DNA of 64,000 bases from Oscillospiraceae bacterium (lineage in GTDB: Bacteria; Bacillota; Clostridia; Oscillospirales; Ruminococcaceae), in NCBI GenBank assembly GCA_017536625.1, contig JAFXGY010000005.1, positions 45,035-109,034 on the forward strand. Direction: 5' to 3'. Positions 44,096 through 44,592 of the stretch are shown piece after piece; positions within the stretch are counted from its first letter, which is position 1; each line of letters opens with the position of its first letter. Below the pieces are notes generated by a model. The model saw only the letters and a list, made by a program, of their open reading frames with translations. It ran no database searches and had not been told where the DNA came from. Made by a program: the position numbers and the translations under genes.

Positions 44096-44592
44096 AAACA
44101 AAAATAATTCGGGCAGAGCACCGGGCGGCGGGGATTTTTTAGGGTTTTATTCCCAAGGCTCGCATGTGTCACACCTTTCTTTTGAACCGGGCGGCGGTTT
44201 TTAACCTCCTTAAAAGCGATTTTTATCTTTTGATATCCCTTTCATGATATTTCTGCATTGTCTTTTTTTTACCGCCGCCGTCCGGTGTTCTGCCCGAAAA
44301 GAATCCAATAAAACATTATCCGTTCCCCTTGAGGGAAAAATTTTCTGTTTTTGCCGGACAGTTTGAAGTATTGCTGTCCGAAGCACATCCTTCTTATTTG
44401 AGATTCCGGAACGGCTTGCGTTGGTCGCGGTGTTCGCAAGCTGTCCGGCAAAGGCAGAAATCCGGATTTTGCCGGACGGTCCGGTCAACCGTCCGGGGCT
44501 ATACTTTTTTAATAATTGTACCCGGACAAGCCCGTTTTTCGGGCTGCCCGGCAAGATCCGGACACCTTGTTTATTCATTTTGACAAGAAAGA

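What the first reader, a model, noticed from the sequence alone, without database searches (positions are those of the whole stretch)
44100..44592. About 500 nt of non-coding, GC-hairpin-dense sequence with a 24-bp long-range helix and seven CCGGAC motifs
No credible ORF lies between 44095 and 44665. The minus-strand ORF 44210-44605 is basic, low-complexity and has no SD.

TTCGGGCAGAGCACCGGGCGGCGG (44108-44131) pairs with CCGCCGTCCGGTGTTCTGCCCGAA (44275-44298) over 24 bp. Both deviations are G-U pairs only if the plus strand is read as RNA; on the other strand they would be C-A mismatches. A second copy of ACCGGGCGGCGG (44186-44197) offers an alternative partner.

Downstream are stacked hairpins at about 44405-44449, 44452-44472, 44472-44498 and 44529-44545. 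The hexamer CCGGAC or its complement GTCCGG occurs 7 times between 44280 and 44563 (starts at 44280, 44354, 44443, 44472, 44491, 44522 and 44558). About 0.14 occurrences would be expected by chance.

This is either a large structured phage RNA or an iteron-type origin or regulatory DNA region.
Basis: seen in the sequence. Interest (0 to 1): 0.62.

Follow-up and report, generated by a model that had tools for sequence, protein, structure and literature searches.

The report
Strand-specific hairpin island beside phage replication genes
A 470-base non-coding stretch of a gut-bacterium prophage folds, on one strand only, into three long conserved hairpins. It always travels with the phage's rolling-circle replication genes, so it is most likely the site where copying of the displaced single DNA strand restarts, although a folded regulatory RNA cannot be excluded.

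Summary
Window 44100-44565 holds no gene. It consists of three tandem long-range helices: H1 44108-31/44275-98, H2 44342-65/44437-60 and H3 44461-83/44540-62. The CCGGAC/GTCCGG hexamers (8 copies, not 7) are the conserved inner part of these helices and of nested hairpins.

All 14 related uncultured Oscillospiraceae phage contigs that reach this region carry 1-3 such modules; none of 180 other loci does. The inner stem (GCCGGRCGG / CCGYCCGGC) is conserved, the outer stem covaries and the loops are free to vary. Non-Watson-Crick pairs are G·T on the + strand 42 times and A·C 8 times, so the + strand folds as a single strand.

There is no Rfam match and no match in the reference phage or plasmid collections.

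The modules co-occur strictly with an HUH rolling-circle Rep clade and an orphan multi-zinc-ribbon protein. They lie 1.3-1.75 kb upstream of a conserved phiX174-like nick motif (45847-65), on the strand that would be displaced.

Best reading (about 45%): a new type of single-strand (lagging-strand) origin. Main rival (about 33%): a structured leader or intercistronic RNA of the early/replication operon. Classical tandem iterons, coding sequence and a mobile element are rejected or unlikely. No RNA-seq data exist to decide between DNA and RNA.

The parts
44108..44298 (+). Module H1. Long-range helix with 5' arm 44108-44131 and 3' arm 44275-44298: 24 bp, of which 22 are Watson-Crick and 2 are G·T. 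The interior is 143 nt, AT-rich and variable.
   Evidence: (I1). Orthologues in L247, L248, L249, L021, L020, L012, L018, L108 and L011 keep the helix with different outer-stem sequences. In run X12, T44281C and T44288C turn both G·T pairs into G-C.
44186..44197 (+). Second copy of ACCGGGCGGCGG inside the H1 loop, followed by TTTTTA. It is an alternative partner for the H1 3' arm.
   Evidence: A CGGCGG(CGG)TTTTTA block is kept in L247, L248 and L249, and partly in L021, L020 and L011. Its function is unknown.
44342..44460 (+). Module H2. Helix 44342-44365 / 44437-44460: 24 bp, 21 Watson-Crick and 3 G·T. Its core is TTTGCCGGACAG / CTGTCCGGCAAA. An inner hairpin lies at 44412-19/44434-41, and a competing local hairpin at 44355-61/44374-80.
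   Evidence: (I3). The A44452G variant keeps the pair as G·T on the + strand.
44461..44562 (+). Module H3. Helix 44461-44483 / 44540-44562: 23 bp. Inner hairpins are CCGGACGG/CCGTCCGG (44472-79/44489-96) and AGCCCG-T5-CGGGCT (44529-34/44540-45).
   Evidence: (I4). The outer stem covaries across the orthologues: TCCGGA, TTCAGA/TCTGAA, TGCGG/CCGCA, GTTAAAAC/GTTTTAAC and TTCCGGAC/GTTCGGAA.
44585..44665 (+). Host REP-like repeat of about 55-70 nt. It is not part of the hairpin island.
   Evidence: The host genome holds 23 copies. Contig depth is very high in metagenomes. The same element is inserted inside the H1 loop of L021.
44859..45551 (+). zn230, an orphan multi-zinc-ribbon protein of 230 aa. 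It is the gene that co-occurs best with the modules.
   Evidence: Present in 14 of 14 loci with modules. The only 5 module-less loci that have it are contigs cut off before the gap. No Pfam or PHROG hit. The AF2 model has pLDDT 88, with no fold match in PDB or BFVD beyond single zinc ribbons.
45820..45967 (+). Probable double-strand origin. It comprises hairpin 45821-45836, the near-invariant GGTCAGAGGTATTAATGTT at 45847-45865 (a nick-site-like motif), and hairpin 45912-26/45953-67.
   Evidence: Conserved in 13 relatives (A3). The motif matches the phiX174 origin G|ATATTAAT. Sequence read.
46121..46897 (+). HUH rolling-circle replication initiator (Rep).
   Evidence: PF23343 at 3e-9 and phrog_3584 at 3.5e-46. 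H120, H122, Y163 and K166 are invariant in 25 homologues.

Best explanation
The island is a single-strand (lagging-strand) origin, or a related single-stranded-DNA element, of the prophage's rolling-circle replication module.

**Proposed sequence of events.**
1. After excision, the HUH Rep nicks the + strand at the conserved GGTNAGAG|RTATTAWTGTT motif, about 260 nt upstream of rep.
2. Host helicase and polymerase extend the 3' end and peel off the + strand.
3. The island lies 1.3-1.75 kb upstream of the nick, so it is among the last sequence of each genome unit to become single-stranded.
4. Its three 19-24-bp helices then snap back into branched hairpins.
5. These hairpins give the host priming machinery an entry point on SSB-coated DNA. 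The machinery could be a PriA-type primosome, primase or RNA polymerase, possibly helped by the co-inherited zinc-ribbon protein.
6. Complementary-strand synthesis starts there.

**Shown.** The conserved, covarying structure; its strand specificity; its strict linkage to the Rep/zn230 clade; and its position and polarity relative to the nick-like motif.

**Inferred.** That the nick motif is used, that the folded strand is DNA, and every step of priming.
For: 1. **Real, selected structure.**
   - An alignment of five syntenic gaps, not chosen for pairing, gives H1, H2 and H3 by RNAalifold. Of 99 predicted pairs, 27 show compensatory double changes.
   - On 31 arm pairs, 96.9% of cells pair and 17 of 20 pairs change on both sides. 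The covariation score is 0.757, against 0.227 for shuffles and 0.10-0.20 for slid controls.
2. **Strand-specific.**
   - 42 G·T against 8 A·C on the + strand.
   - All three in-stem population variants keep + strand pairing.
   - This excludes a purely duplex-DNA site or cruciform.
3. **Same polarity as the Rep nick-like motif.** The motif is conserved in 13 relatives and matches phiX174 G|ATATTAAT. The folding strand is therefore the one that would be displaced, and the island sits upstream of the dso, as sso elements do in rolling-circle plasmids (PMC5714925, PMC8860593).
4. **Distribution.** Modules are found in 14 of 14 loci that have zn230, a Rep of at least 46% identity and enough upstream DNA. 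They are found in 0 of 180 other loci, including Rep relatives at about 41% identity.
5. **No phage priming genes.** No primase, helicase or polymerase lies between the immunity region and the terminase.
6. **Cassette-like behaviour.**
   - One to three modules per locus.
   - Position either before or after the 58-aa gene.
   - The H1 loop tolerates a 55-nt insertion.
7. **DNA-like hairpin loops.** Inner hairpins are capped by T4-T5 loops rather than GNRA/UNCG tetraloops.
Against: - The + strand is also the sense strand of the early operon. Every structural argument therefore fits RNA equally well.
- The G·U advantage shows up with RNA energy parameters (-231.9 against -220.6 kcal/mol) but not with DNA parameters (-95.3 on both strands).
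- The ssoA hallmarks RSB (TTATGCCGAGAAAATTT) and CS-6 (TAGCGT) are absent. Only a TGCCG core is shared.
- No sigma-70-like promoter mimic is seen on either strand.
- The more distant Rep clade (about 41% identity) has no comparable hairpins, so such an element is not a general requirement.
- The nick site is inferred from a 9-nt resemblance only.
- There are no experimental data of any kind.
Confidence: 0.45

Rival explanations
1. The island is a cis-acting structured RNA, serving as the leader or intercistronic region of the early/replication operon. The rightward early transcript runs through it and the three helices fold in the RNA. They might act as RNase III-type processing or stability elements, as a regulatory platform bound by a phage protein such as zn230, or as a switch. 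The competing CCGGRCGG / CCGYCCGG copies would provide the alternative pairings for a switch.
For: - The sense strand is the folding strand (42 G·U against 8 A·C). G·U pairs are typical of selected RNA helices and stabilise only under RNA parameters (against 90-91).
- No terminator follows any module, so transcription would read through into tm65, zn230 and rep.
- In L012, L018 and L108 the modules sit directly upstream of the first gene of the operon, in a leader position.
- Several alternative pairings exist: the 44186 copy, and 44355-61/44374-80 against the H2 long-range pairing.
- The H1 loop of most orthologues contains an anti-Shine-Dalgarno-like ACCUCCUU.
Against: - No Rfam family matches, even at E of 10 or less.
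- No GNRA/UNCG tetraloops are present, and the loops are poorly conserved.
- The number of modules varies from 1 to 3.
- Perfect 20-24-bp duplexes would be cleaved by RNase III rather than act as a stable riboregulator.
- The element tracks the Rep/zn230 clade rather than the immunity or early genes.
- No transcript data exist.
Confidence: 0.33
2. The island is a duplex-DNA protein-binding region. In this reading GCCGGRCGG boxes are operators or Rep/zn230 binding sites (an iteron-like origin or regulatory region), and the inverted repeats reflect dimer binding or DNA looping.
For: - The 8-12-nt core is highly conserved while the flanks vary.
- CCGG is enriched about 7-fold in the island.
- CCGG-containing boxes and a GCAGACG 7-mer recur in the dso hairpin loop and in module loops of relatives.
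Against: - The boxes are never tandem direct repeats.
- Partner boxes lie 56-175 nt apart, and 10-16 nt of non-conserved flank covaries to keep pairing. Protein binding to duplex DNA does not require this.
- The 42:8 bias of G·T over A·C cannot arise on duplex DNA.
Confidence: 0.1
3. The island is a mobile or selfish repeat (MITE-like or REP-like), or a degenerate remnant without function.
For: REP-like host repeats do invade this prophage's intergenic regions, at 44585-44665, 45673-45725 and 46035-46087.
Against: - Positions 44100-44585 are unique in the host genome.
- They are absent from 300 genomes of the same family by DNA search.
- The inner stem is conserved rather than the termini.
- The island is syntenic in all relatives and shows compensatory evolution.
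Confidence: 0.03

Closest known systems
Single-strand origins (ssoA, ssoU, ssoT, ssoW, ssoL) of rolling-circle plasmids of Firmicutes
   Same: - Non-coding imperfect palindromes of about 100-300 nt.
- Fold only on the displaced + strand and are orientation-specific.
- Lie upstream of the dso and accompany an HUH Rep.
- Cassette-like and variable between relatives, sometimes with two per replicon.

Sources: PMC5714925, PMC8860593.
   Different: - The ssoA signatures RSB and CS-6 are absent, and no promoter mimic is seen.
- The host replicon is a roughly 25-40-kb tailed temperate phage, not a small plasmid.
- Up to three tandem modules share one conserved inner-stem core, GCCGGRCGG.
- Genes lie between the island and the dso.
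Intergenic region of Ff filamentous phages (M13/f1) and the complementary-strand origins of phiX174 and G4
   Same: - About 500 nt of gene-free DNA.
- Several hairpins form on the viral (+) strand.
- They serve minus-strand priming.
- Rep belongs to the same Pfam family as gene II protein (PF23343).
   Different: - In Ff phages the nick site and packaging signal lie within the same region. Here the nick-like motif is 1.3 kb away.
- The virion here packages duplex DNA through a terminase.
- There is no sequence similarity.
RNase III processing hairpins of phage early polycistronic mRNAs (T7 R sites, lambda N leader)
   Same: Long hairpins of about 20-24 bp, with internal branches, located between early genes on the sense strand.
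   Different: - Those sites are single hairpins with characteristic internal loops.
- They do not share a common GC-rich core.
- They are not linked to a Rep clade.
AAV inverted terminal repeat (a T-shaped hairpin recognised by an HUH Rep)
   Same: A branched hairpin with a conserved sequence in the stem and small cross-arm hairpins, associated with an HUH endonuclease.
   Different: - The AAV element is terminal on a linear ssDNA genome and contains the nick site.
- This is an analogy only.

Membership tests
ssoA-type single-strand origin | Non-coding imperfect palindrome forming an extensive hairpin on one strand only | tested here: met
   Three helices of 23-24 bp. G·T against A·C is 42:8 on the + strand. 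Covariation.
ssoA-type single-strand origin | Located upstream of the dso, on the strand displaced by Rep | tested here: inconclusive
   The island lies 1.3-1.75 kb upstream of a conserved phiX174-like nick motif on the same strand. The nick site itself is inferred, not shown.
ssoA-type single-strand origin | RSB consensus (TTATGCCGAGAAAATTT, PMC4598088) in the loop-distal stem | tested here: not met
   The best counterpart, TTTTGCCGGACAGTTTG, differs at 7 of 17 positions. Only TGCCG is shared (sequence read).
ssoA-type single-strand origin | CS-6 (TAGCGT) in the terminal loop | tested here: not met
   No TAGCGT occurs in 44096-44600. The nearest sequences are AAGCGA (44213) and TTGCGT (44417).
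ssoA-type single-strand origin | RNA-polymerase-dependent primer synthesis on the ssDNA | not testable with these tools
   Needs in vitro priming, or rifampicin-sensitive conversion of ssDNA to dsDNA.
Known structured RNA families (Rfam 15, including ROOL, GOLLD, HEARO and raiA) | Match to a family covariance model | tested here: not met
   No hit at gathering thresholds in the whole window. Only noise at E of 10 or less in 43500-46300.
Iteron-type origin | Tandem direct repeats of about 17-22 bp bound by the initiator | tested here: not met
   The motif copies form inverted pairs 56-175 nt apart with covarying flanks. No tandem direct array is present.
Ff-phage intergenic region | Rep nick site and hairpins in one gene-free region; initiator of the gene II protein family | tested here: inconclusive
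   Rep hits PF23343, and the hairpin island is gene-free. The nick-like motif, however, lies in a separate gap at 45847-65.
Intrinsic terminator | GC-rich hairpin immediately followed by a U-tract | tested here: not met
   No T-run follows the 3' arm of H1, H2 or H3. There is only a weak inner match at 44480-97.
Protein-coding gene | Conserved ORF with homologues | tested here: not met
   No gene was called in the gap on any relative contig. Indels are not in multiples of three, and the loops are unconserved.

The most novel reading that the evidence does not exclude
The hairpin island and the orphan multi-zinc-ribbon protein zn230 form a self-contained phage priming device. In this reading zn230 recognises the conserved GCCGGRCGG stem of the folded, displaced strand. 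It then recruits or replaces the host primosome, which lets a tailed dsDNA temperate phage replicate like a rolling-circle plasmid with only two proteins of its own. This would be a new class of complementary-strand origin with a dedicated, structurally novel recognition protein.
Probability: 0.12. Interest if true: 0.8.

Novelty: new variant of a known kind. Interest (0 to 1): 0.55.

Why it matters
- **An unstudied replication problem.** Tailed temperate phages that replicate with a plasmid-type HUH Rep and no primase or helicase of their own are common in gut metagenomes but unstudied. How they convert the displaced strand into duplex DNA is unknown.
- **A concrete candidate.** This conserved, strand-specific hairpin island, with a defined core motif and a co-inherited orphan protein, is a testable candidate for that step.
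- **If the RNA reading is right.** The island would be a new phage structured-RNA class of 100-470 nt with strong covariation support.
- **Practical value.** Either way, the GCCGGRCGG-cored module is a usable marker for this phage clade in ruminant and animal gut data.

Tried and rejected
- **Rfam.** Gathering thresholds over the whole window and E of 10 or less around the region gave nothing credible.
- **Reference collections.** blastn of the region against the phage and plasmid collections found no match. A DNA search in 300 genomes of the same family found only the window itself.
- **Single-protein searches.** Searches of IMG/VR with Rep, zn230 and p84 individually found nothing. Progress came only from the Rep protein search and its profile.
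- **Pattern GCAGACGNNNTNNNCCGYCCGG in IMG/VR.** It returned 43 hits, none with the CCGGRCGG partner motif within 160 nt upstream, about the number I estimated for chance; one group (L143/L145/L161) was not looked at further.
- **Pattern GCCGGRCRG-N56-86-CYGYCCGGC in 400 genomes of the family.** The hits lay mostly in GC-rich sequence unlike the modules and were not informative, though they outnumbered the reversed-pattern control. The own genome has only the window's copies.
- **Small minus-strand ORF behind the GGAGG in the H1 loop.** No start codon is conserved in any orthologue, so this was rejected.
- **pC194-type CTTGATA nick site in the H1 loop** (TATCTTTTGATAT). It is not conserved in relatives, so this was rejected.
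- **Analogous hairpin in L026** (Rep 47% identity). The repeat lies inside a coding region, so this was rejected.
- **Fold search of zn230.** No significant match.
- **RNA-seq runs.** None is listed.
- **ssoA reference plasmids.** pMV158 and pSELNU1 are not in the plasmid collection. The ssoA comparison therefore rests on motifs quoted in PMC4598088.

Full report
**Context.** The window carries a prophage of an uncultured Oscillospiraceae bacterium. The host genome is a 1.9-Mb MAG, and relatives come from ruminant and other animal guts. The gene order is as follows:

| Feature | Coordinates |
|---|---|
| Serine integrase | 39062-40540, minus strand |
| HicB | 40976-41395 |
| CI/LexA-type repressor | 41452-42093, minus strand |
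| Likely P_R | 42890-42918 |
| Cro-like gene | 42932-43171 |
| Lar | 43199-43447 |
| 58-aa gene | 43444-43620 |
| 84-aa gene | 43841-44095 |
| The gap under study | 44096-44664 |
| 65-aa membrane protein | 44665-44862 |
| 230-aa cysteine-rich protein (zn230) | 44859-45551 |
| Second gap | 45552-46120 |
| HUH rolling-circle initiator (Rep; PF23343, phrog_3584) | 46121-46897 |
| Small genes, terminase, major head, tail fibre, portal | downstream |

No primase, helicase or polymerase was seen.

- *Helix.* The 24-nt arms at 44108-31 and 44275-98 are the top inverted repeat of the region. Their two non-Watson-Crick pairs are G·T on the + strand.
- *Motif count.* CCGGAC/GTCCGG occurs 8 times in 44280-44563. 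The rest of the window predicts about 0.11.
The hexamer is simply the conserved core of all three helices and of the small hairpins nested in them.
- *Folding.* The region folds far better than shuffles: z is -10.4 on the + strand and -8.4 on the - strand with RNA parameters, and -7.7 and -6.4 with DNA parameters.
- *Boundary.* The last 80 nt of the gap (44585-44665) are a separate element, a host repeat present 23 times in the genome.

**Relatives.** DNA searches found nothing in reference phages, plasmids or 300 genomes of the family. Homologues of Rep and of zn230 led to metagenomic contigs. A Rep profile brought about 180 further loci from IMG/VR, GTDB genomes and metagenomes.

- *Where the modules occur.* Every locus with a zn230 homologue, a Rep of at least 46% identity and enough upstream DNA has an uncalled gap at the syntenic place (14 of 14). 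That gap holds one to three modules of the same design.
- *Module design.* A 19-29-bp long-range helix has a conserved inner end, (TTT)GCCGGRCGG / CCGYCCGGC(AAA) or GCACCGGGCGGCGG / CCGCCGYCCGGTGC. Its outer 10-16 bp differ completely between lineages yet stay complementary. The interior is 47-175 nt and variable, with small hairpins.
- *Where they do not occur.* None of the about 180 other loci has one. These include the large Rep cluster at about 41% identity and 43 unrelated viral contigs.
- *Best-correlated gene.* This is zn230, not the immunity genes, the 58-aa gene or the 84-aa gene.

**Is the structure selected?**

- *Alignment not chosen for pairing.* A plain MAFFT alignment of five syntenic gaps, folded by RNAalifold, returns H1, H2 and H3. 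Of 99 pairs, 27 carry compensatory double changes.
- *Arm pairs.* On 31 arm pairs anchored at the core, 96.9% of cells pair and 17 of 20 positions show changes on both sides. The covariation score is 0.757, against 0.227 for shuffles and 0.10-0.20 when the partner is slid. That set was partly chosen for complementarity, so the synteny-based result is the cleaner test.
- *Loop tolerance.* The H1 loop tolerates a 55-nt REP insertion in L021, so the stem, not the loop, is constrained.
- *Population variants.* A sheep-gut metagenome contains T44281C and T44288C, which convert the two G·T pairs of H1 to G-C. It also contains A44452G, which converts an A-T pair of H2 to G·T.

**Which strand folds?** Over 20 distinct modules, transition-type mismatches are G·T on the + strand 42 times and A·C 8 times, with 3 other mismatches. 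Duplex-DNA binding sites or cruciforms cannot produce this asymmetry. The + strand therefore acts as a single strand. It is both the sense strand of the early operon and, as argued next, the strand Rep would displace.

**The replication module.** The second gap, just upstream of rep, is conserved in 13 relatives. It contains:

- a covarying hairpin at 45821-36;
- a near-invariant GGTNAGAG(G/A)TATTA(A/T)TGTT at 45847-65;
- a perfect covarying hairpin at 45912-26/45953-67.

The invariant block matches the phiX174 origin G|ATATTAAT at 8-9 of 9 positions, read on the + strand. Rep keeps HxH and YxxK invariant. I take this to be the double-strand origin; that is an inference. If Rep nicks there, synthesis runs rightwards and displaces the + strand. 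The hairpin island, 1.3-1.75 kb to the left, is then among the last DNA of each unit to become single-stranded. This is the classical position and polarity of single-strand origins in rolling-circle plasmids. Those origins are likewise imperfect palindromes that work in one orientation and recruit RNA polymerase or a primosome (PMC5714925, PMC8860593).

**Against simple membership.**

- The ssoA signatures quoted in PMC4598088 (RSB TTATGCCGAGAAAATTT and CS-6 TAGCGT) are not present.
- No sigma-70-like promoter mimic was found on either strand.
- The distant Rep clade lacks such hairpins.

If the island is an sso, it is a new type.

**The RNA alternative.** It remains strong.

- G·U pairs give the + strand an 11 kcal/mol advantage only under RNA parameters (against 90-91).
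- No module ends in a terminator, so the early transcript would contain them.
- In three lineages the modules occupy a leader position.
- Competing copies of the core could form a switch.

Points against it are the lack of any Rfam match, T-rich rather than GNRA/UNCG hairpin caps, weakly conserved loops, variable copy number, and linkage to the Rep/zn230 clade rather than to the early genes. No transcriptome contains this phage, so the question stays open.

**zn230.** The protein has four or so CxxC pairs and an internal beta-beta-beta-alpha duplication. It gives a confident model (pLDDT 88) without any fold relative in PDB or BFVD beyond single zinc ribbons. Its strict co-occurrence with the modules makes it the obvious candidate partner, but nothing shows that it binds them.

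**Verdict.** The finding is a real, conserved, strand-specific hairpin island that belongs to the rolling-circle replication module of a clade of uncultured gut phages.

| Reading | Estimated probability |
|---|---|
| Single-strand origin of a new type | about 45% |
| Structured RNA | about 33% |
| Duplex protein-binding region | about 10% |
| Selfish repeat | about 3% |
| Something else | the remainder |

It is not an iteron array, not coding, and not a known RNA family.

Noticed in passing
window 45820-45967: Probable double-strand origin of the prophage. It has a covarying hairpin at 45821-36, a near-invariant GGTNAGAG(G/A)TATTA(A/T)TGTT at 45847-65 that resembles the phiX174 nick site, and a perfect covarying hairpin at 45912-26/45953-67. 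All three are conserved in 13 relatives.
   Followed up: partly
window 45948-45954; L012, L018, L108, L106, L109, L249 and L021 module loops: The 7-mer GCAGACG sits in the loop of the dso hairpin. It also sits in the loop of the 3'-proximal inner hairpin of H2-type modules in seven relatives, but not in the window's own modules. It may be a shared recognition element, or it may be chance (about 5%).
   Followed up: partly
window 44859-45551: zn230 is an orphan multi-zinc-ribbon protein with an internal duplication. Its AF2 model is confident, and it has no fold relative in PDB or BFVD. It is strictly linked to the hairpin modules and the Rep clade.
   Followed up: partly
window 44585-44665, 45673-45725, 46035-46087; L021 1666-1720: A host REP-like repeat of about 55 nt (23 matches in the host genome) punctuates the prophage's intergenic regions. 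It is also found in related phages, including inside the H1 loop of L021.
   Followed up: partly
window 44199-44210 and 45550-45561: TTTTAACCTCCT in the H1 loop is perfectly complementary over 12 nt to AGGAGGTTAAAA at the end of zn230. An anti-Shine-Dalgarno-like ACCTCC recurs in the H1 loops of most orthologues.
   Followed up: no
L020 3840-4613 and 5001-5732: One related contig carries two tandem Rep genes (257 and 243 aa), each followed by a 68-aa gene. This looks like a duplicated replication module.
   Followed up: no
L066 3044-3772 (IMG/VR clade with Rep at about 41% identity): The Rep clade that lacks the hairpin modules encodes an SSB-domain protein and a ParA-type ATPase near rep. This suggests a different solution for handling the displaced strand.
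   Followed up: no
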